From the IMG/VR virus record IMGVR_UViG_3300045988_138037: a stretch of 49,743 nt of DNA. The stretch is one strand, 5' to 3'. The DNA comes from a virus. Below the pieces are notes generated by a model. That model did not search any database, had not been told where the DNA came from, and saw only the letters and a list, made by a program, of their open reading frames with translations. The translations under genes and the position numbers were made by a program. Shown here piece by piece: positions 14,708 to 37,278 of the stretch; the stretch's first letter is position 1; each line of letters opens with the position of its first letter.

Positions 14708-14781
14708 TGGCAGGAGTGGTAAGAATTGAACTCACGTCTACGGTTTTGGAGACCGTTGTGTTACCATTACACCACACTCCT
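14708..14781 (-). tRNA. trnW: tRNA-Trp (anticodon CCA) with encoded CCA end
   Basis: The reverse complement AGGAGTGTGGTGTAATGGTAACACAACGGTCTCCAAAACCGTAGACGTGAGTTCAATTCTTACCACTCCTGCCA folds as a 74-nt cloverleaf. It has a 7-bp acceptor stem, anticodon loop CTCCAAA and T-loop TTCAATT. Confidence 0.9.
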
Positions 14782-17336: not shown

Positions 17337-18161
17337 TTACCCCCACATTTTCGCCATTAAAGTGTTGTACATAAGTGATAAAACTGTCATTACTCCTGTA
17401 TGACCCGTTCCAGATGCTACTAACACATCAAGCTCTTCTAAATCTTCAATTTTTACATCTCCACAAAGTTTACCTTCGTACATATTCATAGAACAATCTA
17501 TTATTATTTGTCCGTCTTTAAAATAACTCTTATCGAAGAATTTAGCTTTACCTATACCTGTTATAACTATATCTGCGTTTTGCATCTTCTCTTTTAAGTT
17601 TTTAGTTTTTGAATGACACATTGTAACAGTTGCATTTTCATCTGTAAGCATTATTTGAAGCGGTTTACCTATTAAATTACTTCTATTTACTATTACTACG
17701 TCTTTTCCTTCTAATTCTGTGATGTGAATTAACATATTTAAAACACCAAGAGCAGTACAAGGGTACATTATTTTACCGTTTTGAGTAGTTAATCTACCTA
17801 TTTGTTTAGTACCTAGACCGTCTACGTCTTTCTCCACATCAATAGTATCAAGAGTTTTACGCTCGTCTAAGTGTTTTGGAAGTGGCAATTGAACTATTAT
17901 ACCATTTGTATCACAATCTGTGTTGTAATACTCTATAATCATTTCTAAATCTCTTTGTGGTATATCGTTTTTTAATAACGTATGTTCAACTTCTATACCT
18001 AACTCTTTGCCTAATTTAATTTTGTTCTTAACATAAGAATTTGATGCTTTATCTCCTTCAACTTGTAATATAACTAATTTAGGAGCAATGCCTTTTGTCA
18101 TTGAAGCCTTAAACGCATCCTTTATTTCTTGTGCTATTTCTTTTGTATTTATTATATTCAT
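17337..18161 (-). CDS. folD: Bifunctional 5,10-methylene-tetrahydrofolate dehydrogenase/cyclohydrolase
   Basis: PKLVILQVEGDKASNSYVKNKIK, GIIVQLPLPKHL, KDVDG, PCTALG, VVIVNRSNLIGKPL and ATVTMCHSKT motifs. Confidence 0.85.
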   Translation of the reverse strand: MNIINTKEIAQEIKDAFKASMTKGIAPKLVILQVEGDKASNSYVKNKIKLGKELGIEVEHTLLKNDIPQRDLEMIIEYYNTDCDTNGIIVQLPLPKHLDERKTLDTIDVEKDVDGLGTKQIGRLTTQNGKIMYPCTALGVLNMLIHITELEGKDVVIVNRSNLIGKPLQIMLTDENATVTMCHSKTKNLKEKMQNADIVITGIGKAKFFDKSYFKDGQIIIDCSMNMYEGKLCGDVKIEDLEELDVLVASGTGHTGVMTVLSLMYNTLMAKMWG

Positions 18162-29091: not shown

Positions 29092-29769
29092 TCACCCCCA
29101 AGTTTGTGTCATTACTATTTCATTACTGAAATCTAGTATAGTTTCATTATATACTGTTTCACCATTTATGTAATTAAGTAACTTCCATATAGCGTGTGAT
29201 GTTATCGCTAATGCACTTGGTAAAACTGTTTGAGAAACTCCACAAGCACTTACTTCTGCCTCATCATCACTATAAAATGTTTGTTCATACATCTTTGTTT
29301 GTTCTCTGTTTTTCGGGTCAACTACATATATCCTACCTCCACGTAAATCCATACGTGTTTCTATTAACAAATCAATAGAAGGGTTATTTTTTATAGCTCT
29401 GTTATATATATCTTTTCTTGATTTCATAGTATCTGTAAGCATAAATACTATACCTTGCATTGGAACAGAGCCGTCTACCTTCTCATTTCTTGCATTTACA
29501 GTAAAGCCTGTGAATAACTTTATTATATTACGTATTGATAGAGCTTTGTTTCTATCTATATCTCTAACTCCAAACATCTGATTTGGTAAATTGTGCATAC
29601 CAACTTCATCAAAATCGTATATATGTAAGTTACTTAATCCCATTTTTGCAAGTGAGAAAGCAATCCAACTTCCTGTTGCTCCTGCACCTATTATATTTAT
29701 TTTAGTATTAAACTCCTCTGGGTTTAATATGTTGATTTGACGACTAAAATCATCCATTATTCTTGACAT
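29092..29769 (-). CDS. Minimal ThiF/MoeB-type E1-like adenylyltransferase
   Basis: Rossmann GxGxxG INIIGAGATGSWIAFSLAKMG, then IYDFDEVGMHNLPNQMF (D-x-D..NL.RQ-like) and LTDTMKSR. Confidence 0.7.
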   Translation of the reverse strand: MSRIMDDFSRQINILNPEEFNTKINIIGAGATGSWIAFSLAKMGLSNLHIYDFDEVGMHNLPNQMFGVRDIDRNKALSIRNIIKLFTGFTVNARNEKVDGSVPMQGIVFMLTDTMKSRKDIYNRAIKNNPSIDLLIETRMDLRGGRIYVVDPKNREQTKMYEQTFYSDDEAEVSACGVSQTVLPSALAITSHAIWKLLNYINGETVYNETILDFSNEIVMTQTWG

Positions 29770-29796: not shown

Positions 29797-30090
29797 TTAT
29801 TTTCTATATTTTCTAACATTATATATGTTTATACTTATATCACATATACCTAAAACCTTTATTTCTTCTTTCAAACTGTTGTGTATTACATCATTTACAT
29901 ATATATCAGTTTCTGTAATTTTGATAATATCTGTTATGTTTATAGCTGATTTCATTGTGTTATCATAATCATATATAAACAAACTTGGTTCTTCGCCCGA
30001 TTTTTGTAATAACACATAATCACCTTGATATATTTTACCAAATTCTTCTTCTCTATAACTTGCATCAAATTTTATATTTACTTTACTCAT
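29797..30090 (-). CDS. Hypothetical protein upstream of the E1-like gene
   Basis: SD aagagga; 97 aa. Confidence 0.5.
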   Translation of the reverse strand: MSKVNIKFDASYREEEFGKIYQGDYVLLQKSGEEPSLFIYDYDNTMKSAINITDIIKITETDIYVNDVIHNSLKEEIKVLGICDISINIYNVRKYRK

Positions 30091-30147
30091 TGTTATATCC
30101 TCTTAAAAATATTAAATAAACGTTATGCTTCCTTTAAAATTTTGAAT

Positions 30148-30321
30148 TTAATCCATATTCTTGTGTCTATCTAGCAACAAAGCCATATGTTTTATTTGAA
30201 TTGGATTTTTAAAATCTTTAGCATACAAATTTCTATACTCGCCAGTATGTTTATTTACAACCATAATAAAACTATCTGACTCCATTCTAAGTATCCAATC
30301 TCCCCATTTACCTATTTTCAT
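30148..30321 (-). CDS. Hypothetical small protein (57 aa; not in the ORF track)
   Basis: Strong SD aaggagg 6 nt before the ATG; MKIGKWGDWILRMESDSFIMVVNKHTGEYRNLYAKDF... Confidence 0.45.
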   Translation of the reverse strand: MKIGKWGDWILRMESDSFIMVVNKHTGEYRNLYAKDFKNPIQIKHMALLLDRHKNMD

Positions 30322-30337
30322 AATTTCCTCCTTATTT

Positions 30338-30502
30338 TTATTTAATAAAACGTATCTTAAAATACATTAATATCATAAATAAATTTATCAATAATTGACT
30401 TTTGTGTACAGTATTACTCTTAAATAAAAACAAAGTAAATAAGATATATAATATCGCAAATATATCTATTGGTTCTATTTTATTATTTTTTACTATTTTC
30501 AT
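30338..30502 (-). CDS. Hypothetical small membrane protein (54 aa; not in the ORF track)
   Basis: Strong SD aggagga; hydrophobic segment IDIFAILYILFTLFLF. Confidence 0.4.
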   Translation of the reverse strand: MKIVKNNKIEPIDIFAILYILFTLFLFKSNTVHKSQLLINLFMILMYFKIRFIK

Positions 30503-30511
30503 AACTTCCTC

Positions 30512-30736
30512 CTAATTTCTATTTAAAATACTTATTAATTCTTCTTTTTGTTTTAAACTTAAATTATAAACCTTTTCTATTTCTTCCTCCCACTTTTTAG
30601 GAGCACTCCTCTTTCCTGTTTCTATCATTGATAAAAAAGATGGAGTTACATTTAATTTTATAGCCATATCTTTAAGTAGTTCTCCGTTATCTATTCTCAA
30701 TTTTCTTAAGAATTTTCCAAATTCGGTAAGTTTCAC
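30512..30736 (-). CDS. XRE/Cro-type HTH transcriptional regulator
   Basis: FGKFLRKLRIDNGELLKDMAIKLNVTPSFLSMIETGKR. Confidence 0.8.
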   Translation of the reverse strand: MKLTEFGKFLRKLRIDNGELLKDMAIKLNVTPSFLSMIETGKRSAPKKWEEEIEKVYNLSLKQKEELISILNRN

Positions 30737-30766
30737 ACTATCACTTCCTTTAAAATTTTGATATTT

Positions 30767-30937
30767 TTATTCAATAATTTCTGATATTTGATTATATATA
30801 TCAATTAATAATTCATCAATTTCTTCTCTTTTATTGTTTAATTCTCCCAAAAATCCATTATATTCTTCCATTGAAAAATACAATAAGAATTGTTTTAATA
30901 ACTTTGATTTTTCATCTGTTAGAATTATCCTAACCAT
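30767..30937 (-). CDS. Hypothetical small protein (56 aa; not in the ORF track)
   Basis: Strong SD aggagga; MVRIILTDEKSKLLKQFLLYFSMEEYNGFLGEL... Confidence 0.4.
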   Translation of the reverse strand: MVRIILTDEKSKLLKQFLLYFSMEEYNGFLGELNNKREEIDELLIDIYNQISEIIE

Positions 30938-30960
30938 AATTTCCTCCTAAAACTCCTCTT

Positions 30961-31320
30961 TTAAACTAACAATTCTGGATTTTCGTATATATTTCCTATT
31001 ACTTTACACTTATTGTATATTTTACCTACAAAATAATCTCCTGCTCTATATATCCCAAAGTGATATTCTACTTTTTCAGTTATTATTTCATCTTCAACAT
31101 TTGAATAAAATTCAACTATATCGCCTTCGTATATCTCAGTTCCATTACTATCTTTAATGCCTGTGTATTGCATCAATGTATATAAATATAAAGGTCTTAC
31201 ATCATCTTTGGTGTTTACATAGCAATCATCTCCTAGATGTGAGTATGATACTATTAAATTATCTTGGTCATACATAATATTTTCTTCTTTATTCCATGCT
31301 CTAAATTTAATTTTTCTCAT
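30961..31320 (-). CDS. YopX-family protein
   Basis: KFRAWNKEENIMY ... LMQYTGIKDSNGTEIYEGDIV ... VIGNIYENPELL. Confidence 0.85.
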   Translation of the reverse strand: MRKIKFRAWNKEENIMYDQDNLIVSYSHLGDDCYVNTKDDVRPLYLYTLMQYTGIKDSNGTEIYEGDIVEFYSNVEDEIITEKVEYHFGIYRAGDYFVGKIYNKCKVIGNIYENPELLV

Positions 31321-31329
31321 AACTTCCTC

Positions 31330-32265
31330 CTATTGTATGTAACCTAAATAACTTAAATATTGATTTTCGTTATCTTTACAGTAACTTTCTATTAATATCT
31401 CAAGGTCTATCTCTTCATCTTGTGATAAGAATACTCCTAAATAATCTATAACACTAGAACCGTGTTCTATATAATACATACATTCAAATATATCTTCTGG
31501 TTCTAGCGAGTCAAATATCTCAAGCACTTTATTTTCCTCTTCTTTTTCGCTTGTTTTTTCGTTTTTTTTTGAGTAATTACCATATCCACTATAATCTGTG
31601 TAATCACTCCACCAACTATTACAAGTAGTTACGTTGTTTTTATTAACGTTGTAAGTCTTTTTAGTTACTTTATTACCTATTTCTGATTTGATAGAGTTTA
31701 TTAACTCCTCACTTGGGTCTATTCTTGTACAAATCATCTCTTCTATCTCTGCAATTTTTCTATATAAAGACTCTATTATTTCTGTATCTCCACCATAATT
31801 TATTTCATATGGTAGTTTCTCGTATATAACACCTGTTGTAAAGTCGTATAAATCTATTCTAAAATCACCACTTTTGTTTGCTATTATACGTATAAAGAAA
31901 TCTTCTTCATTTTCTGCGAACACTTCGATTTGCTTATCATCTTGACCAGAAGGTGTAGTAGGCATATTAACGTGAGAATGACCCCACACCTTCATATTAT
32001 TCCATATCTCTACACCATTTTCTTCGTATAACAAGTCCATAGCAAATTCATTAAGTCCTTCTGTTGTTATTTCTGTTGTAGTAGCGTGTACTTCTTGTCT
32101 AAATAAAAACACATCATCTATATAAAATACATTACCTACTCTTCTTGAAGTACCCAACCAACCTATTTCTAGGTCTGATTGGCGTACATACTCCTTCATC
32201 TTGTTCATAGCGTTTAAATTTATACTTATCTTTGGTGCAAATCTATCCATTAACTTAACATTCAT
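31330..32265 (-). CDS. JAB/MPN (JAMM) metallopeptidase with a C-terminal extension
   Basis: Complete JAMM signature: EIGWLG ... HSHVNMPTTPSGQD (H-x-H-x7-S-x2-D). Confidence 0.75.
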   Translation of the reverse strand: MNVKLMDRFAPKISINLNAMNKMKEYVRQSDLEIGWLGTSRRVGNVFYIDDVFLFRQEVHATTTEITTEGLNEFAMDLLYEENGVEIWNNMKVWGHSHVNMPTTPSGQDDKQIEVFAENEEDFFIRIIANKSGDFRIDLYDFTTGVIYEKLPYEINYGGDTEIIESLYRKIAEIEEMICTRIDPSEELINSIKSEIGNKVTKKTYNVNKNNVTTCNSWWSDYTDYSGYGNYSKKNEKTSEKEEENKVLEIFDSLEPEDIFECMYYIEHGSSVIDYLGVFLSQDEEIDLEILIESYCKDNENQYLSYLGYIQ

Positions 32266-32266
32266 A

Positions 32267-33706
32267 TTATAATTCCTCTCTTTCTTCTAACTCTTCTTCG
32301 TAACAATCTTCGCACATTCCTTCTTTTTCTTCTTGACAGTCTGTACAGTACGTATATCCACACTCTTTGCATTGAAATGTATCTTCTTTTCTTACTGCAT
32401 CTCCACATTCTGCACAATCTACAAACAGTTCTTCATAGCAATCTTCACAATACCATTTATCATTTGTGAAGTTCATTTCATCCTTTCTACACTCTTCACC
32501 ACACTCACAACAAGTTTCAATTAAGTCTGAATAACAATCATCACAATGCCATTCATTGTCTATTAAGCTCATTTCATCCTTTCTACACTCTTCACCACAC
32601 TCATAACAAGTTGCAATTAATTCACAATAACAATCATCACAGTAAACATCATCTCCATACCAAGTCATATCATTGTTATGTGCTTTTTCATCACAATTAT
32701 CACAACGGCTATAATCATTTTCATAACATCTTTCACATACATACATACTATTATTATCTATCCAATAAGCGTGGTCATCACACATATGGTCTCCACAATC
32801 TTCGCAATAAAATGCACTATCTTCATCTAATTCCTCATCACATATATGGCAAACTTTGCACTCTCTATCATATGGATTTTCTAAATCATTGCCTCCTTCG
32901 TCTATACAATCCCAATTACGTATGTATGCTCCTGCTGCATCATCTGTATTAACTTGTTGTAAGAAGTTTAAAACAACTATAAACGAAGCATATATCTCGT
33001 AGTTGTTCATATTCTCAACAAGCATAGACCCTGCACTACCCCAACACGCTTCTCCATTTTCTCCATTAACGTGTGGGTGTGGGTCTTTATCTGTCCAATA
33101 TGATTTTCTGTTATAATCCTCATCTAAACCATTTATATAACAAGTCATATCGTCAAAATCAAAACTTAAAAGATATTTATTACCTTTAAACTTGTTACCT
33201 TTCTCATCATATATATCTATGTAATCGGTTTTTATTTCAACTACTTTACCTGTTGGTCTCGCTACTGCACTTACTACATATTTATGGCTTAATATAGCTT
33301 CCATATCACTTGTATAATCTCTACCTTCACCTTCACTACTTAATACTTTTACTCTGCTCATCGCATTTTTGTATGAATTCCAAGCAACATCCATATATTC
33401 TTTATATCTTTTTATATCTCTAAGGTATTCTTGTTCTTCATTTTTAGCTCTTTCTAAAGCCTTTTTATTATCTTTCAAAGCTATCTCATTAAACGCTTTG
33501 CTTAACTCTTTAACTCTATCTTCCATTGTCTTTTCTTTCCTTTCAACTAATTCAAATCTTTCCATTAAATGTCTCTCACTTGGATACTCAACTAAATTCA
33601 TCCAACTGTTACTTAATATCTCTTTAACAGTAGCAGTATCTCCTACTACCATTTTCCCAGAATTTCCATATACTCTTCTAACCACATCTCCTACTTCAAA
33701 TATCAT
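32267..33706 (-). CDS. E2 (UBC)-like domain protein fused to a C-terminal array of CxxC zinc ribbons (RING-like)
   Basis: YLLSFDFDD...DPHPHVNGENGEACWGSAG resembles UBC HPN-x(5-7)-C. The C-terminal 200 aa carry about 15 CxxC pairs, including a 96-nt tandem duplication. Confidence 0.5.
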   Translation of the reverse strand: MIFEVGDVVRRVYGNSGKMVVGDTATVKEILSNSWMNLVEYPSERHLMERFELVERKEKTMEDRVKELSKAFNEIALKDNKKALERAKNEEQEYLRDIKRYKEYMDVAWNSYKNAMSRVKVLSSEGEGRDYTSDMEAILSHKYVVSAVARPTGKVVEIKTDYIDIYDEKGNKFKGNKYLLSFDFDDMTCYINGLDEDYNRKSYWTDKDPHPHVNGENGEACWGSAGSMLVENMNNYEIYASFIVVLNFLQQVNTDDAAGAYIRNWDCIDEGGNDLENPYDRECKVCHICDEELDEDSAFYCEDCGDHMCDDHAYWIDNNSMYVCERCYENDYSRCDNCDEKAHNNDMTWYGDDVYCDDCYCELIATCYECGEECRKDEMSLIDNEWHCDDCYSDLIETCCECGEECRKDEMNFTNDKWYCEDCYEELFVDCAECGDAVRKEDTFQCKECGYTYCTDCQEEKEGMCEDCYEEELEEREEL

Positions 33707-33858
33707 TTATACAACCTCCTAATATTGTATGATTTGGTATTGTAAGTGCTTATACACTTTAAAAAGAGCACAACAGGGTAAAAAATAAGTTTGATATGTA
33801 ATTTTGAAATATCCCCAACGGTATGCGTTGTGCTAAAATTAAAATGTATAAACAAGAA

Positions 33859-33876
33859 GGTCTACGTGTGTAGACC
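33859..33876 (-). terminator. Hairpin downstream of the Ubl gene (possible attenuating terminator)
   Basis: ggtctac-gtgt-gtagacc, followed on the minus strand by ttcttgtttat. Confidence 0.35.
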
Positions 33877-33889
33877 CTCTATTTATTTA

Positions 33890-34708
33890 TTAAGCATTTA
33901 TTTCTGCTATTAATCTTTGTAAGAACATTATTTTATTGTTTATAGCGTGAGCTTCTTCTATGTAAAATCTGTAAGACTTTTCTAAATCTTCTAGCTCTTT
34001 ATTTAAAACATCCATAGCTTTACTATCTTTTGACTCAACTTCTATTTCTCTTACATCAACTACTTCTTCTCTAACTTCTCTTATATCAACTACTTCTTCT
34101 CCATTAAACCCATCAACAATCTCGTTATAAACACTTAAAAACATATCTTCTTCAACTACTAATGTTTCATTACCAACTTCTATTTGTAAAAAGTTATCTC
34201 CACACATATTTATACTGTCTGTATTTATTACTTGTGGAAGTTTTACACCTAATAATATCGTTACTTCTTCTTGTGTACAATCTGTTTTTCTAAAACTAGC
34301 ATTACCTTTTATCATCTTCATAGCAACAAGTAAGTTACCATTGTTTATTCTTGTATCAAGTGCTACCTTCTCACCGTCTAATCTTACCTCGTGGTTAGAT
34401 ACACCTATATTAGCTCTTTCAAATATTTCGTAAGCAGTATCTCCTTCTGTGTACTCAACAACTTCTAATCTACCTGGCATCATACCAACCTTTATGTTTG
34501 GCATATTACCTTTTATCATTTTCATAGCAACTAATAAATTTCCATTGTGTATAGTTCTGTCTAAATCTATCTTTTCTCCGTCTAATCTTATTTCGTGATT
34601 AGATAACTCTACATCTGCTATTTCAAATATTTCTCTTGCAGTTGCTCCTTCGTTTGTAACTACCTCTACTAATCTACCTGGCATCATTCCTACTTTAATT
34701 TTTAACAT
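33890..34708 (-). CDS. Tandem ubiquitin-like (beta-grasp, ThiS/MoaD-like) domain protein with a C-terminal coiled-coil extension
   Basis: Two 68-aa repeats: (M)xKIKVGMMPGRL.VV...G.TA.EIFE.A.....NHE(I/V)RLDGEK..LD..I.NGNLLVAMKMIKGN. Confidence 0.6.
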   Translation of the reverse strand: MLKIKVGMMPGRLVEVVTNEGATAREIFEIADVELSNHEIRLDGEKIDLDRTIHNGNLLVAMKMIKGNMPNIKVGMMPGRLEVVEYTEGDTAYEIFERANIGVSNHEVRLDGEKVALDTRINNGNLLVAMKMIKGNASFRKTDCTQEEVTILLGVKLPQVINTDSINMCGDNFLQIEVGNETLVVEEDMFLSVYNEIVDGFNGEEVVDIREVREEVVDVREIEVESKDSKAMDVLNKELEDLEKSYRFYIEEAHAINNKIMFLQRLIAEINA

Positions 34709-34929
34709 TTCAATTTCCTCCTATCGTGAGCACGACGACTCACACCTAATATGATTTGTATTGTGTGGTATTGTTTAAATACCTAATTTCACCTACTTAC
34801 AACTCGTGTAAGTAAGCAATGTAGACACTTAAACGCTTTTGTTTTTATTCACAGGTCTTTCATTTTTATCTAACTCTGGAGCAGTTAGTATAGCGTGTAT
34901 TATAATCCACATACCTACTACCCAAGTTA

Positions 34930-35121
34930 TTAAAATAAACGTCCCAAACATCTGTCAATCACCCTACCTGTCTTATATAATATGTATGCTATAAATAAAT
35001 TAACGAAGTAAATAACCCAAGTAATAAAATTCATACCTAGATTAAATAATCCCATTTTTATAACTGTTATTGATGTGATACCTCCGTATATAAAAGGTAG
35101 TATAAACTCAAATCTCAACAT
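34930..35121 (-). CDS. Small two-TM membrane protein
   Basis: SD ggaggga; hydrophobic 63-aa ORF. Confidence 0.5.
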   Translation of the reverse strand: MLRFEFILPFIYGGITSITVIKMGLFNLGMNFITWVIYFVNLFIAYILYKTGRVIDRCLGRLF

Positions 35122-35371: not shown

Positions 35372-35535
35372 AACTATTTTCCTCCGACTTATTTATTTTC
35401 TATTGCACTTTCTTGTTCATTCTTATCACTTTCTTTATATTATAACAAATTCCATACATTTTTTATTATTTTTTTCTTTTTGGAACTTGTTTTTTATAAA
35501 TTATTTACACCCTTAGTCTGTTTTTTTTTATTTTT

Positions 35536-35830
35536 TTATGTTCGTATTAGGGAGCGGTAGCGACCGTCGTAATAAGGTAACAACAAGGCGATAAACTTGG
35601 TTGGAGCAAAGCGACGTGATGAAGTAAGTGAGGGGATTGTATATGATACGAATGAAGTATGTGTAAAAGGTGTGTATAAACGAAGAGAACGCACCGAAGA
35701 ACGTGGAAAGAACGTGAAAAAATACAAATCAAAGTAGCTTTGTTGATGCAATCAACACGTTTTGGTACTTTTGCGTTTCAAAAGTACATTCAGTAAAAGA
35801 AAGGGGAACGAACGTGAGTCTTTCCTCCTT
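35536..35830. ncRNA. GC-rich non-coding island; candidate structured RNA (strand not determined)
   Basis: Composition differs sharply from the flanks, with only overlapping short ORFs on both strands. Hairpins gttgat-gca-atcaac and gtacttttg-cgttt-caaaagtac. Three GAACG(T/C) repeats spaced about 12 nt apart. Confidence 0.3.
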
Positions 35831-35841
35831 TTAAGGGGGTT

Positions 35842-35880
35842 AAAATAAAAAAAGGGAGCAGAACTTAATCCACTCCCTTT
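35842..35880 (-). terminator. Rho-independent terminator after the 463-aa gene
   Basis: 8-bp stem aaagggag/ctcccttt with a 14-nt loop, followed on the minus strand by tttttttatttt. Confidence 0.6.
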
Positions 35881-35886
35881 GAAAAA

Positions 35887-37278
35887 CTATACTAACATAT
35901 CAAGACCTAAAACTTTAAGTATATGCTCTGGTTGACTAACTATAAATGCACCCCATTGGAACGTTGGGTTCACTTCTTTTATAACATCTCTTTGCTCAAA
36001 TACCATTTTTCTAAACTCTGCATAATGTTGCTCTTCTACTAAAGCATATTTAACTTCTCCACCTTGTACAAAGTAAGGTAGTATTCCATTCATCTCTTCT
36101 GGTACATCTTGACCTACACAAGAGTATATTCTGAATACGAAGTTAGTAAGTTCTTTAGCTTGTTGTTGTTCTTCTTTTAATACTAATGAACGAACTTCCC
36201 TACTCTCTCTAGCACTAAACTTAACTAATGTATTATCTTCCATTATAGCTTGTCTAAATCTTTGAGTTGATTTGTTATTAGCAACTTTATTTAATCTAAC
36301 TCTATGCTCTAAATCTCTACATAACATTTCAAAGTTTTGATTAGGTATAGTACAAAGGTAAGTTAATCTAGTACATTCATATTCACCAAGTTGTATGTAT
36401 AAGTTCTTTAAAGTGTTCATTTGAGTGTTATCTAGTTTATTACCTTCATAGTAGTTAGTTATATAATCATATGTTTGTATGAAGTTGAACGCACTCTCTC
36501 TGTTGAACTTAACTTTTATAGTTTCTCTTAATGAACTCCAATTAAATGTATAGTATAACTTATCTTCTGGTCTGTACTCGAAATCTCTAACATCTATATT
36601 GAATTCAGATTTAAGAGTTTCGTGAGTTTCTATATATCTAGCAACATCTGCTATTCTTCTTACTTGTGAGTCTGTTGGTTCTTGTAATTCATAACTCATA
36701 GCCATTAAATCTTTATTGTGCTCGAACCACTCTCTTTTGTGTATATTATTCTTAACTTCTTCAACTATTAGAGCAAAATCACTTCTATGTTTTAATGTCT
36801 CTAATGCTTCTGATAACATTAATCTTTGGTTATAGAATGATATACCGCTTAAAACTTTTATTATTTCTGATGCTTGGTTAGCATTTAAGTTATTTATGAA
36901 CTCTATTTGTTTCGCATCTATGTCCATACCTACTCTATCTCTAAGACCTGCCATTATAGTTTCTGCTTGTCTTGTTGATACTTGTGCAGTAGTAGTGTTG
37001 TAATGTTTCTTACAAAGTTCTTTTAACTTATTACTGAAAGATTTAACTATTATCTTTTGTCTAAATGCTTCTGACTCGTTAAATACAAAATTTACCTCAT
37101 CATCTAACTTAACTTCTTTCATATTGTTTTTAAACTCATCTTCTTTTAAAGTAACTTCTAAGTTAAGTATTTGATTTACTATATTATTTTGTACTCTCTC
37201 GTTACCTCTTTCAAGTGCTTCCATATATTCTGCCTTTAAGTGTTGTAACATTTTTTCTAATTCTCTTCTGTTTCTCAT
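35887..37278 (-). CDS. Hypothetical early protein (463 aa)
   Basis: SD aaaggag; long ORF; no motif recognised. Confidence 0.6.
   Translation of the reverse strand: MRNRRELEKMLQHLKAEYMEALERGNERVQNNIVNQILNLEVTLKEDEFKNNMKEVKLDDEVNFVFNESEAFRQKIIVKSFSNKLKELCKKHYNTTTAQVSTRQAETIMAGLRDRVGMDIDAKQIEFINNLNANQASEIIKVLSGISFYNQRLMLSEALETLKHRSDFALIVEEVKNNIHKREWFEHNKDLMAMSYELQEPTDSQVRRIADVARYIETHETLKSEFNIDVRDFEYRPEDKLYYTFNWSSLRETIKVKFNRESAFNFIQTYDYITNYYEGNKLDNTQMNTLKNLYIQLGEYECTRLTYLCTIPNQNFEMLCRDLEHRVRLNKVANNKSTQRFRQAIMEDNTLVKFSARESREVRSLVLKEEQQQAKELTNFVFRIYSCVGQDVPEEMNGILPYFVQGGEVKYALVEEQHYAEFRKMVFEQRDVIKEVNPTFQWGAFIVSQPEHILKVLGLDMLV

What the first reader, a model, noticed from the sequence alone, without database searches (positions are those of the whole stretch)
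34301..34708. Polyubiquitin-like precursor: two head-to-tail 68-aa Ubl repeats, each ending in KMIKGN
Residues 1-68 and 69-136 are clear paralogous repeats: (M)LKIKVGMMPGRLVEVV..EIFEIADVELSNHEIRLDGEKIDLDRTIHNGNLLVAMKMIKGN and MPNIKVGMMPGRLEVVEY..EIFERANIGVSNHEVRLDGEKVALDTRINNGNLLVAMKMIKGN. The pattern of hydrophobic strands, a central helix and a C-terminal ..G tail is that of ThiS/MoaD/ubiquitin. A 136-aa acidic coiled-coil extension follows. The layout resembles eukaryotic polyubiquitin, which needs a peptidase to expose the C-terminal Gly. The neighbouring JAMM protein is the obvious candidate for that step.
Basis: partly seen in the sequence, partly recalled or inferred. Interest (0 to 1): 0.8.

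Follow-up and report, generated by a model that had tools for sequence, protein, structure and literature searches.

The report
Phage-encoded polyubiquitin-like precursor and enzymes
A ~50-kb bacteriophage genome encodes two head-to-tail copies of a small ubiquitin-like protein followed by an extra tail domain, next to a likely trimming protease, an activating enzyme and a probable carrier enzyme, so the phage appears to carry its own ubiquitin-style protein-tagging kit whose tag is made as a polyubiquitin-like precursor.

Summary
ORF 33890-34708 (-) is 272 aa. Residues 1-68 and 69-136 are 71% identical, each ends in KMIKGN, and the AF2 model matches linear di-ubiquitin, polyubiquitin and ISG15 (Foldseek E 2e-8).

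The 68-aa unit defines a family with no Pfam or PHROG match (262 representative proteins). It occurs as 1, 2, 3 or 4 head-to-tail units. In 251 units the Gly is invariant, the Lys before it is 95% conserved and the Asn after it 93%. Many proteins stop exactly at ...KGN. Close relatives differ by exactly one unit.

The gene heads a conserved phage cassette. Downstream are:
- a 479-aa protein with an invariant HPH...C core (probably E2-like) and LIM-type zinc fingers;
- a JAMM peptidase;

The order matches BilABCD.

Best reading: a phage-encoded Ubl conjugation system. JAMM cuts the modifier precursor at each KG/N junction, which also removes the 136-aa C-terminal domain. Cleavage, conjugation and targets are inferred, not shown. 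The E2 assignment is only moderately supported.

Verdict: a new variant of a known kind (prokaryotic Ubl-E1-E2-JAB operons). It is phage-borne and truly polyubiquitin-like.

The parts
34505..34708 (-). Ubl unit 1 (residues 1-68), beta-grasp, ends KMIKGN
   Evidence: pLDDT ~80, b-b-a-b-b pattern; Foldseek di-ubiquitin/ISG15; unit HMM i-E 7e-29
34301..34504 (-). Ubl unit 2 (residues 69-136). It starts with Met and ends KMIKGN. It is 71% identical to unit 1.
   Evidence: i-E 3e-26
34505..34513 (-). K66-G67-N68: junction motif 1, proposed processing site and reactive Gly
   Evidence: G invariant in 251/251 units, K 95%, N 93%. AF2 pLDDT <50 for residues 64-72, i.e. a flexible tail.
34301..34309 (-). 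K134-G135-N136: junction motif 2, the boundary to the C-terminal extension
   Evidence: Homologues without an extension end at or 1-3 residues after this motif.
33893..34300 (-). C-terminal extension (residues 137-272). It has a conserved alpha/beta module (~137-197, nt 34118-34300), an acidic linker (~198-228) and a terminal helix (~229-272, nt 33893-34024). Proposed pro-domain or released fragment.
   Evidence: extension HMM hits only Ubl-fused copies. No Pfam, PHROG or NCBIfam match.
33855..33880 (-). Terminator-like hairpin (11-bp stem) 10 nt after the Ubl stop codon. It could be a partial terminator that gives excess Ubl mRNA over enzyme mRNA.
   Evidence: pattern match only
32267..33706 (-). 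479-aa protein: SH3-like domain (1-55), long helix (61-124), HPH...C core (132-265, nt 32912-33313) and four or so LIM/treble-clef zinc fingers (286-460, nt 32327-32851). Proposed E2-like carrier with built-in E3-like or substrate-binding fingers.
   Evidence: AF2 pLDDT 85. 13 invariant residues in 121 homologues, including H210 P211 H212 C221. hhalign to E2s. LIM/FYVE/DZR matches.
33044..33079 (-). HPHVNGENGEAC (H210-C221): candidate E2 active-site loop. C221 (nt 33044-33046) is the candidate thioester cysteine.
31330..32265 (-). JAMM/MPN+ metallopeptidase (311 aa). The motif H96-S-H98-x7-S106-x2-D109 is at nt 31939-31980 and the catalytic Glu33 at nt 32167-32169.
   Evidence: PADLOC JAB E 5e-4. 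Profile against PDB: BRCC36 E 0.08 and CSN5 E 0.41, aligned on the motif. Motif residues are invariant in 4 divergent homologues.
29092..29769 (-). E1-like adenylating enzyme (225 aa, ThiF family). GAGATGS is at nt 29668-29688. The single cysteine, C176, is at nt 29242-29244.
   Evidence: Pfam ThiF E 3.9e-21. PADLOC Cap2 E1-E2 models E 1e-11. NCBIfam ThiF E 4e-15. The gene is contiguous with JAMM in relatives L004, L009 and L015.
29797..31320 (-). Small genes (YopX 30961-31320, an XRE-type HTH 30512-30736 and others) lying between JAMM and E1 in this phage only. They are not part of the system.
   Evidence: They are absent between JAMM and E1 in L004 and L009.

Best explanation
The 272-aa protein is the precursor of a phage-encoded ubiquitin-like modifier. 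It consists of two complete head-to-tail Ubl units, each running from Met to K-G-N, followed by a 136-aa C-terminal domain that blocks the last unit.

It is the first gene of a conserved cassette, Ubl(n) - HPH..C/zinc-finger protein - JAMM - ThiF-type E1. This is the same order as BilA-B-C-D.

Proposed mechanism, all steps inferred:
1. The JAMM peptidase cuts at each K-G|N junction. Cutting one residue later, after N, is not excluded. This releases two Ubl monomers with a free C-terminal Gly, plus the C-terminal fragment.
2. The E1 adenylates that Gly and probably takes it as a thioester on its only cysteine, C176.
3. The Ubl passes to C221 of the E2-like core of the 479-aa protein. That protein's LIM-type zinc fingers and SH3-like domain choose the target.
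4. The Ubl is attached to lysines of unknown host or phage proteins early in infection. JAMM can also reverse this.

Encoding several units per gene raises modifier dosage relative to the enzymes, as in eukaryotic polyubiquitin genes.
For: Shown by tools:
- Tandem beta-grasp fold with best matches to linear di-ubiquitin, polyubiquitin and ISG15, and a SAMP2-like signal.
- A family of 262 representatives with 1-4 units.
- Every unit, internal or terminal, keeps K-G-N. G is 251/251, K 95%, N 93%.
- Of the proteins without an extension, 44 end exactly at KGN, and most of the rest have 1-3 extra residues.
- Linkers after N are short and variable (mode 2 aa), the same length as the N-terminal leader. 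Each unit is therefore a whole-gene copy, and here unit 2 even starts with Met.
- Units within a protein resemble each other more than any unit elsewhere for 149/202 units, up to 100% identical.
- Two pairs of close relatives differ by a precise one-unit indel.
- The junction residues 64-72 are predicted flexible.
- The cassette Ubl-HPH..C-JAMM-E1 is conserved in all loci with enough flank. These are the window, L001-L004, L009/L010, L013/L014 and L015. The HPH..C protein is down to 21-26% identity, and the cassette always sits in the replication module next to DnaB and primase.
- The JAMM motif is intact and invariant.
- E1 is ThiF-family with a conserved single Cys.
- The HPH..C core aligns co-linearly over 116 columns with eukaryotic E2s: HPH to HPN, C221 to the catalytic Cys, VNTDD to PNPDD. 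hhalign P is 0.0017 and the score 26.3, against 12.6 +/- 2.5 for column shuffles. The AF2 topology is helix, beta-meander, HPx-Cys loop, helices.

From the literature: the JAMM enzyme BilC pre-processes BilA to expose its C-terminal Gly and also deconjugates it (PMC10557695).
Against: - No cleavage, adenylation or conjugation was tested.
- N after the Gly is 93% conserved and is very often the last residue. It may therefore be part of the mature tail or of a different chemistry, rather than a mere P1' residue.
- The E2 assignment is weak. No Pfam E2 family matches any of 58 members. There are no E2 hits in the top 50 Foldseek PDB matches or the top 60 PDB profile matches. hhalign probability is only 16%. 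H210, H212, C221 and C267 could instead be a zinc site.
- The E1 is a minimal 225-aa ThiF-like enzyme without the Cys and UFD domains of E2-charging E1s.
- One 4-unit homologue (L005) has no E1 or JAMM within its 8.6-kb contig.
- Known bacterial multi-beta-grasp Ubls (BilA, BubA) are not cut between domains (PMC11601603).
Confidence: 0.6

Rival explanations
1. ISG15/BilA-type multi-domain modifier. The two beta-grasp units stay joined. Only the C-terminal 136-aa domain is removed at K134-G135|N136, and the di-Ubl is conjugated as one piece.
For: Bil and Bub Ubls with 2-3 beta-grasp domains act as single proteins (PMC10557695, PMC11601603). Foldseek also matches ISG15. The gene order equals BilABCD.
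Against: In ISG15-type proteins only the last domain keeps the reactive tail. Here every internal unit keeps K-G-N (251/251 G) and has a flexible linker. Units are near-identical whole-gene copies with variable number. This pattern is expected if each junction is used.
Confidence: 0.15
2. Ubl units serve as cleavable N-terminal carriers for the C-terminal domain, like ubiquitin-ribosomal-protein fusions. JAMM releases the 136-aa fragment as the functional product, and conjugation is secondary or absent.
For: The extension contains a conserved globular module and helix, found in 36 of 148 representatives and always fused after KGN. It is never found as a separate gene in relatives lacking it.
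Against: Most family members (112 of 148) have no extension at all yet keep the E1/JAMM/HPH..C cassette. The Ubl itself is therefore the conserved product. An E1 is not needed for a mere carrier.
Confidence: 0.08
3. Sulfur-carrier system (ThiS/MoaD/CysO-like). The E1 makes a Ubl thiocarboxylate for synthesis of a thiolated metabolite or nucleoside, with JAMM trimming as in CysO-Mec+ or QbsE-QbsD.
For: The E1 is a minimal ThiF-type enzyme and its best NCBIfam matches are ThiF and MoeB. Homologous phage E1s are annotated as thiamine biosynthesis. JAMM-Ubl-E1 trios without an E2 do sulfur chemistry in bacteria (PMC1779556).
Against: No rhodanese, cysteine desulfurase or thiazole/molybdopterin synthase partner is in the window. 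The tail is K-G-N, not G-G. Head-to-tail multi-copy precursors and a linked HPH..C/zinc-finger protein are not features of sulfur carriers. E1 scores are far below every ThiF/MoeB equivalog cut-off.
Confidence: 0.07
4. The repeats are a structural or adaptor beta-grasp array. K-G-N is a fold-stabilising strand end, with no processing or conjugation, and the linkage to E1 and JAMM is coincidental.
For: Beta-grasp domains serve many non-conjugating roles (PMC1949818). One 4-unit homologue lacks nearby enzymes.
Against: Linkage to E1 and JAMM is conserved across very divergent phages. Proteins end precisely at the motif. The tail is predicted disordered, not structural.
Confidence: 0.03

Closest known systems
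Bacterial Bil (BilABCD) ubiquitin-like conjugation operons
   Same: The same four functions occur in the same gene order: Ubl, E2(-like), JAMM deubiquitinase, E1. JAMM pre-processing of a C-terminally extended Ubl is experimentally established there (PMC10557695). Ubls with 1-3 beta-grasp domains exist (PMC11601603).
   Different: - This cassette is encoded by a phage, in its replication module, not by a bacterial defence island.
- The E1 is a 225-aa single-domain ThiF-like protein, not the IAD+AAD+CYS enzyme BilD.
- The Ubl family has no detectable sequence match to Pfam Ubl families.
- Every unit keeps its own reactive-tail motif.
- Extra domains sit C-terminal to the tail, whereas in Bil and Bub they are N-terminal.
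- The E2-like protein carries LIM-type zinc fingers.
Eukaryotic polyubiquitin genes (UBI4, UBB, UBC)
   Same: Both have head-to-tail whole-unit repeats, each starting at the unit's N-terminus and ending in the reactive Gly motif. Copy number is variable. Units within a gene are homogenised. A blocking residue or extension follows the last Gly, and a peptidase is needed to release monomers.
   Different: There is no sequence relationship beyond the beta-grasp fold. The tail is K-G-N rather than R-G-G. The proposed peptidase is a JAMM metalloprotease encoded in the same operon. Some members have a 136-aa domain as the cap rather than a single residue.
Archaeal SAMP / UbaA / HvJAMM1 system
   Same: Both have a small ThiS/MoaD-type Ubl (weak SAMP2 match), a minimal ThiF-type E1 and a JAMM protease that cleaves conjugates and linear fusions. 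Conjugation there needs no canonical E2.
   Different: SAMPs end in GG and are single-unit. They are cellular and also act in sulfur transfer. There is no linked HPH..C/zinc-finger protein.
Bub operons / Iyer-Aravind type 6e operons with 1-3 Ubl repeats (mlr6139 family)
   Same: These are prokaryotic proteins with tandem Ubl repeats linked to JAB and E1, noted in 2006 as reminiscent of polyubiquitin (PMC1779556).
   Different: Those repeats are differentiated domains of one folded protein that forms dimers and filaments (PMC11601603), and they are fused or linked to different enzymes (JAB-E1 fusion, DUF6527). Here the units are near-identical and each has the tail motif.
Lambda/T1 tail assembly protein I (Ubl) with TAPK (JAB + NlpC/P60)
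   Same: It is a phage-encoded Ubl with a C-terminal Gly, followed by a further domain and a neighbouring JAB peptidase predicted to cut after the Gly (PMC1779556).
   Different: It lies in the tail-assembly module, has a single Ubl and has no E1 or E2-like protein. The cassette here is in the early/replication module.
CBASS type II Cap2 (E2-E1) / Cap3 (JAB)
   Same: The best PADLOC matches of the E1 and JAMM proteins are Cap2 and Cap3 models. The chemistry is also E1/E2/JAB.
   Different: Cap2 conjugates the CD-NTase itself. There is no Ubl, the E2 and E1 are fused, and it is a bacterial defence system.

Membership tests
Ubiquitin-like beta-grasp modifiers (ThiS/MoaD/SAMP/ubiquitin superfamily) | beta-grasp fold (b-b-a-b-b) | tested here: met
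   The AF2 model of unit 1 has pLDDT ~80 with secondary structure E-E-H-E-E. Foldseek top hits are di-ubiquitin, polyubiquitin and ISG15, E 2e-8, prob 1.0.
Ubiquitin-like beta-grasp modifiers (ThiS/MoaD/SAMP/ubiquitin superfamily) | flexible C-terminal tail ending in a conserved Gly | tested here: met
   G is invariant in 251/251 units. The tail has pLDDT <50. The Gly is followed by N in 93% of units, so it is penultimate, not terminal, in the gene product.
Ubiquitin-like beta-grasp modifiers (ThiS/MoaD/SAMP/ubiquitin superfamily) | sequence membership in a curated Ubl family (Pfam, NCBIfam) | tested here: not met
   There is no Pfam hit at E<=1. The NCBIfam SAMP2 match is 18 bits against a cut-off of 70. 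Only 'faint' precomputed ThiS, SAMP2 or ubiquitin hits exist on homologues.
Polyubiquitin-type precursor | head-to-tail whole units, each retaining the reactive tail motif | tested here: met
   (linker length equals N-terminal leader length; unit 2 begins with Met)
Polyubiquitin-type precursor | variable copy number and within-gene homogenisation | tested here: met
   1-4 units occur. Precise one-unit differences separate ~85-90% identical proteins. 149/202 units are closest to a sister unit. Caveat: the library is clustered at 50%.
Polyubiquitin-type precursor | proteolytic release of monomers | not testable with these tools
   This needs co-expression with the JAMM protein and intact-mass MS.
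Bil (BilABCD) systems | operon encoding Ubl, E2, JAMM DUB and E1 | tested here: inconclusive
   Ubl, JAMM and E1 are present in Bil order. The E2 is only suggested and not confirmed.
Bil (BilABCD) systems | E1 with tandem inactive/active adenylation domains and a mobile Cys domain (PMC10557695) | tested here: not met
   The E1 is 225 aa, a single ThiF domain covering residues 21-212, with one Cys.
Bil (BilABCD) systems | bacterial anti-phage defence function | not testable with these tools
   The cassette is in a phage genome (terminase, portal, capsid, tail, DnaB, primase, polymerase) and in related phage contigs.
JAMM/MPN+ metallopeptidases | E ... H-x-H-x7-S-x2-D zinc site | tested here: met
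   E33 and H96-S-H98-x7-S106-x2-D109 are invariant in 4 divergent homologues. PADLOC JAB E 5e-4. BRCC36 and CSN5 align on the motif. There is no Pfam hit.
E1-like (ThiF/MoeB/UBA) adenylating enzymes | Rossmann-type ATP-binding GxGxxG and ThiF-family profile match | tested here: met
   Pfam ThiF E 3.9e-21, 75.7 bits against a cut-off of 28.1. GAGATGS is at residues 28-34.
E2 (UBC-fold) conjugating enzymes | UBC fold with HPN-type motif and catalytic Cys ~8-10 residues downstream | tested here: inconclusive
   HPH-x8-C is invariant in 121 sequences. hhalign to E2s gives P 0.0017 over 116 columns, z ~5.5 against shuffles. The AF2 topology is compatible. However, there is no E2 among the top Foldseek or PDB-profile hits and no Pfam E2 hit.

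The most novel reading that the evidence does not exclude
A widespread group of tailed phages runs its own ubiquitin-like conjugation pathway. The modifier is made as a true polyprotein of 1-4 head-to-tail units, each ending in K-G-N, sometimes capped by a 136-aa domain.

This would be two firsts:
- the first polyubiquitin-type gene organisation outside eukaryotes;
- the first Ubl cascade used by a phage rather than against it, tagging host or phage proteins early in infection.

The near-invariant terminal Asn may also mean a non-canonical tail chemistry.
Probability: 0.4. Interest if true: 0.85.

Novelty: new variant of a known kind. Interest (0 to 1): 0.72.

Why it matters
Ubiquitin-like conjugation in bacteria has so far been described as a host defence against phages (Bil, CBASS Cap2/Cap3) or as operons of unknown role (Bub). 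I found no paper describing a conserved Ubl-E1-JAMM(-E2-like) cassette that belongs to phage genomes.

If the phage uses it to tag host or phage proteins, it would parallel the way eukaryotic viruses hijack ubiquitination. It would also give a simple, four-gene, experimentally tractable system.

The precursor shows that the polyubiquitin solution (many identical units per gene, released by a dedicated peptidase) also arose outside eukaryotes. The family is abundant in metagenomes, with hundreds of 90% clusters, yet has no Pfam or PHROG model. Related phage E1s are annotated as 'thiamine biosynthesis', which is probably wrong.

Tried and rejected
- DNA and protein searches of the INPHARED phage collection with the locus and with the di-Ubl found nothing. 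Only the E1 has distant relatives in cultured phages. Their +/-5 kb flanks have no detectable Ubl, JAMM or HPH..C protein with my HMMs.
- Pfam, PHROGs, PADLOC and NCBIfam give nothing for the Ubl-extension protein except a sub-threshold SAMP2 hit.
- A search with the L009 E2-like protein gave only 2 hits.
- Attempts to confirm the E2 fold by single-sequence or profile searches of PDB, Pfam on 58 members and Foldseek on the full-length model returned only zinc-finger, SH3 or coiled-coil matches.
- I considered Asn-driven self-cleavage (intein-like succinimide) and Pup-like deamidation of the terminal Asn. Neither has supporting evidence, and a JAMM and a ThiF-type E1 are present, so I kept them only as caveats.
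- I considered that the window's cassette might lack an E1, because YopX follows the JAMM gene. This was rejected: the E1 lies 1.5 kb further on.
- Assembly collapse as the cause of the one-unit variants is unlikely, since the units are only 75% identical in DNA.
Full report
**1. The observation**

The finding sits in a 272-aa ORF on the minus strand, 33890-34708. An AGGAGG site lies 8 nt before the ATG.

Residues 1-68 and 69-136 align without gaps at 48/68 identities. The BLOSUM62 score is 230, against 25 +/- 5 for 1000 shuffles. DNA identity is 153/204. Both units end in LLVAMKMIKGN, and unit 2 begins with Met.

The window is a 32% GC, ~50-kb tailed-phage genome:
- Terminase, portal, capsid and tail genes are on the + strand.
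- DnaE-type polymerase, DnaB, primase and exonuclease are on the - strand.
- It has no nucleotide match in INPHARED.
- Near-identical contigs of 48-50 kb are common in metagenomes.

**2. Fold**

I ran AlphaFold2 on an 18-sequence alignment. Confidence was moderate for unit 1 (pLDDT ~80) and lower for unit 2. Each unit shows strand-strand-helix-strand-strand. The junction (residues 64-72) and most of the extension are disordered.

Foldseek against PDB puts linear di-ubiquitin, a Naegleria polyubiquitin, tri- and tetra-ubiquitin and ISG15 at the top (E 2e-8 to 1e-5, prob 1.0). NCBIfam gives a sub-threshold SAMP2 match across a whole unit (E 0.0025). No Pfam, PHROG or PADLOC model matches.

The units are beta-grasp Ubl domains of a family that curated libraries do not cover.

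**3. The family**

A profile of the 68-aa unit, searched against 1.84 billion representative proteins, found 262 proteins (86 at E<=1e-10).

Of the 148 usable top hits, the architectures were:

| Units | Residues after the last unit | Proteins |
|---|---|---|
| 1 | fewer than 40 | 33 |
| 2 | fewer than 40 | 53 |
| 3 | fewer than 40 | 21 |
| 4 | fewer than 40 | 5 |
| 1 | 40 or more (typically ~100-180, as here) | 18 |
| 2 | 40 or more (typically ~100-180, as here) | 18 |

In 251 extracted units:
- The Gly of the tail is invariant (251/251).
- The preceding Lys is 95% conserved.
- The following residue is Asn in 93% (Ala 14, Gly 3).
- The only other near-invariant feature is the Pro-Gly turn between strands 1 and 2.

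Among proteins without an extension, 44 end exactly at ...KGN, 12 at KGNK and 5 at KGNR. The rest have a few more residues.

The spacer between N and the next core is 1-15 aa (mode 2) and starts with A, S, Q, M or T. The N-terminal leader of the first unit has the same length. Each unit is therefore a complete gene-equivalent.

For 149 of 202 units, the closest unit is a sister unit in the same protein (mean 65% identity, up to 100%). This comes with a caveat: the library is clustered at 50% identity.

Two pairs of close relatives differ by exactly one unit. P0139 is 89% identical to the window protein but lacks precisely 68 residues. P0144 against P0123 shows the same.

These are the properties of polyubiquitin genes. 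They are not those of ISG15-, BilA- or BubA-type multi-domain Ubls, in which only the last domain carries the tail.

**4. The neighbourhood**

All genes below are on the minus strand.

- *32267-33706 (479 aa).* This follows a 183-nt spacer that contains a terminator-like hairpin (33855-33880). Its AF2 model is confident (pLDDT 85). It shows an SH3-like domain (1-55), a 60-residue helix, a core (132-265) and about four LIM/treble-clef zinc fingers (286-460). The fingers are supported by LIM, FYVE and DZR matches.
- *31330-32265 (311 aa).* This has E33 and H96-S-H98-x7-S106-x2-D109, the JAMM/MPN+ zinc site, invariant in four homologues down to 30% identity. PADLOC JAB gives E 5e-4. A four-sequence profile picks BRCC36 and CSN5 from PDB, aligned on the motif, at E 0.08-0.8.
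- *29797-31320.* A block of small genes follows, including YopX and an HTH protein.
- *29092-29769 (225 aa).* This is a ThiF-family E1: Pfam E 3.9e-21, PADLOC Cap2 models E 1e-11, NCBIfam ThiF E 4e-15. It has GAGATGS and a single, conserved Cys176.

**5. Conservation of the cassette**

- In L004 (56% identical Ubl) the four genes are contiguous.
- In L009/L010 a three-unit Ubl ending in KGN is followed by a 437-aa protein with the same core but no zinc fingers. A JAMM and a ThiF gene come next.
- In L013/L014 and L015, two-unit Ubls ending in KGN or KGNK are followed by the same three genes.
- In L008, from a 187-kb contig, the order is JAMM-E1-Ubl3.

My HMMs confirm all of these. In every case the cassette lies in the replication module, upstream of DnaB and primase. 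The order Ubl, E2-like, JAMM, E1 is that of BilA-B-C-D (PMC11601603).

One four-unit homologue, on an 8.6-kb contig, shows no enzymes nearby.

**6. Is the 479-aa protein an E2?**

An alignment of 121 homologues (down to 21% identity) has 13 invariant residues. They include W204, H210-P211-H212, C221, G223, N253, D256 and W265.

Evidence for an E2 fold:
It aligns 116 columns co-linearly from helix 1 to the PNxxDP loop.
- In that alignment HPH falls on HPN, C221 on the catalytic Cys and VNTDD on PNPDD (P 0.0017).
- Column-shuffled controls score 12.6 +/- 2.5 against 26.3 observed.
- The AF2 secondary-structure order fits a UBC fold.

Evidence against:
- hhalign probability is only 16%.
- No Pfam E2 family hits any of 58 members.
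- Neither Foldseek nor PDB profile searches list an E2 among their top hits. Those hits are taken up by the zinc fingers, SH3 domain and coiled coil.
- H210, H212 and C221, with the near-invariant C267, could also be a metal site.

I rate 'E2-like' at about 0.6. The conjugation model does not depend on it, since archaeal sampylation works with an E1 alone.

**7. Mechanism proposed**

All steps below are inferred.

1. JAMM cuts the precursor at each K-G|N junction. This gives two Ubl monomers and frees them from the 136-aa C-terminal domain.
2. The E1 adenylates the exposed Gly. It probably forms a thioester on C176.
3. The Ubl moves to C221 of the E2-like core.
4. The zinc fingers and SH3-like domain select targets.
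5. JAMM also reverses conjugation.

This follows the experimentally shown behaviour of BilC, BilA, BilD and BilB (PMC10557695), and the earlier prediction for phage TAPI/TAPK (PMC1779556).

Three points are open:
- Whether the cut is after G or after N, since N is 93% conserved and often terminal.
- What the extension does. It has a conserved ~60-aa module, an acidic linker, a CxC motif in many relatives but not here, and a terminal helix.
- What is tagged.

**8. Comparison with known systems and novelty**

Tandem Ubl repeats next to JAB and E1 genes in bacteria were noted in 2006 as 'reminiscent of polyubiquitin' (PMC1779556). Bil and Bub Ubls with 1-3 beta-grasp domains have since been characterised (PMC11601603). 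The kind of system is therefore known.

The new features are:
- The cassette is a conserved component of phage genomes.
- The Ubl family is unrecognised by curated models.
- The repeats are true whole units that each carry the tail motif, with copy-number polymorphism.
- The added domain is C-terminal to the tail, so processing is obligatory.
- The E1 is minimal.
- The E2-like protein carries LIM-type fingers.

Four full-text searches found no description of such a phage system. This is absence of evidence only.

I classify it as a new variant of a known kind, with interest 0.72.

Noticed in passing
window 33855-33880 (-) and 35851-35880 (-): Two terminator-like hairpins bracket the Ubl gene and three small upstream ORFs. 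One lies 10 nt after the Ubl stop and the other just after the 463-aa gene. The Ubl gene may be its own transcription unit, or it may be followed by a leaky terminator that sets Ubl:enzyme stoichiometry.
   Followed up: partly
window 29797-31320 (-): A block of small genes (YopX 30961-31320, an XRE-type HTH 30512-30736 and several ORFs of 54-97 aa) separates JAMM from E1 in this phage. The two genes are adjacent in relatives L004 and L009, and in L015 a single 159-aa gene lies between them. It looks like a moron-type insertion into the cassette.
   Followed up: partly
window 35887-37278 (-); L004 3226-4605; L009 3558-5057; L013 3300-4589; L015 3103-4527: A 429-499-aa helical protein with no family match always lies a few small genes upstream of the Ubl cassette in these phages. 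Conserved motifs include LTGGAEGTAS and RITxxQIxxIRxLExRxA in the distant relatives. It could be a partner or target, or just a conserved replication-module gene.
   Followed up: no
window 34829-35121 (-): Two small, strongly hydrophobic ORFs (40 and 63 aa, overlapping by 22 nt) lie directly upstream of the Ubl gene. A homologous 63-aa ORF is at the same place in L004 (5142-5333).
   Followed up: no
window 35372-35886: A ~515-bp stretch has no convincing ORF. It lies between the terminator after the 463-aa gene and the next small gene. No Rfam family matches it.
   Followed up: partly
L011 (Flavobacterium phage FpV4, NC_041872.1 63878-64564) and L012 (Xanthomonas phage PhiXhv-12, PV764601.1 143445-144128): Cultured phages carry ThiF-like E1 genes (28-30% identical to the window E1) annotated as 'thiamine biosynthesis protein'. 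They sit among replication genes, and in PhiXhv-12 a ~70-aa ORF follows. These may be further phage Ubl systems that are misannotated. My Ubl, JAMM and core HMMs found nothing in the +/-5 kb flanks.
   Followed up: partly
extension domains of homologues (P0123, P0124, P0126-P0128, P0131, P0133, P0134, P0137, P0154 and others): Many relatives have a CxC or CxCxxCxC motif either just before the terminal helix or directly after KGN. The window protein lacks it. It may be a metal or redox site in the pro-domain.
   Followed up: no
window 17337-18161 (-): There is a FolD-like methylene-tetrahydrofolate dehydrogenase/cyclohydrolase gene (phrog_7320, E 4e-70) in the phage. It is an auxiliary metabolic gene, possibly linked to nucleotide or DNA-modification chemistry.
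   Followed up: no
window 14708-14781 (-): A single tRNA-Trp (CCA) gene.
   Followed up: yes
L016 (CAZMFY010000123.1, 7.2-kb contig of an 'uncultured Oscillospiraceae' MAG): This is the only relative found in the genome collection (53% identity). It is a weak hint at a Clostridia host. A short binned contig could equally be phage contamination of the bin.
   Followed up: no
BFVD matches of the 479-aa model: Several uncharacterised phage proteins, one annotated 'Amidoligase enzyme' and one 'LIM domain containing protein', share the zinc-finger region. LIM-type fingers may be a recurrent module on phage protein-modifying enzymes.
   Followed up: no
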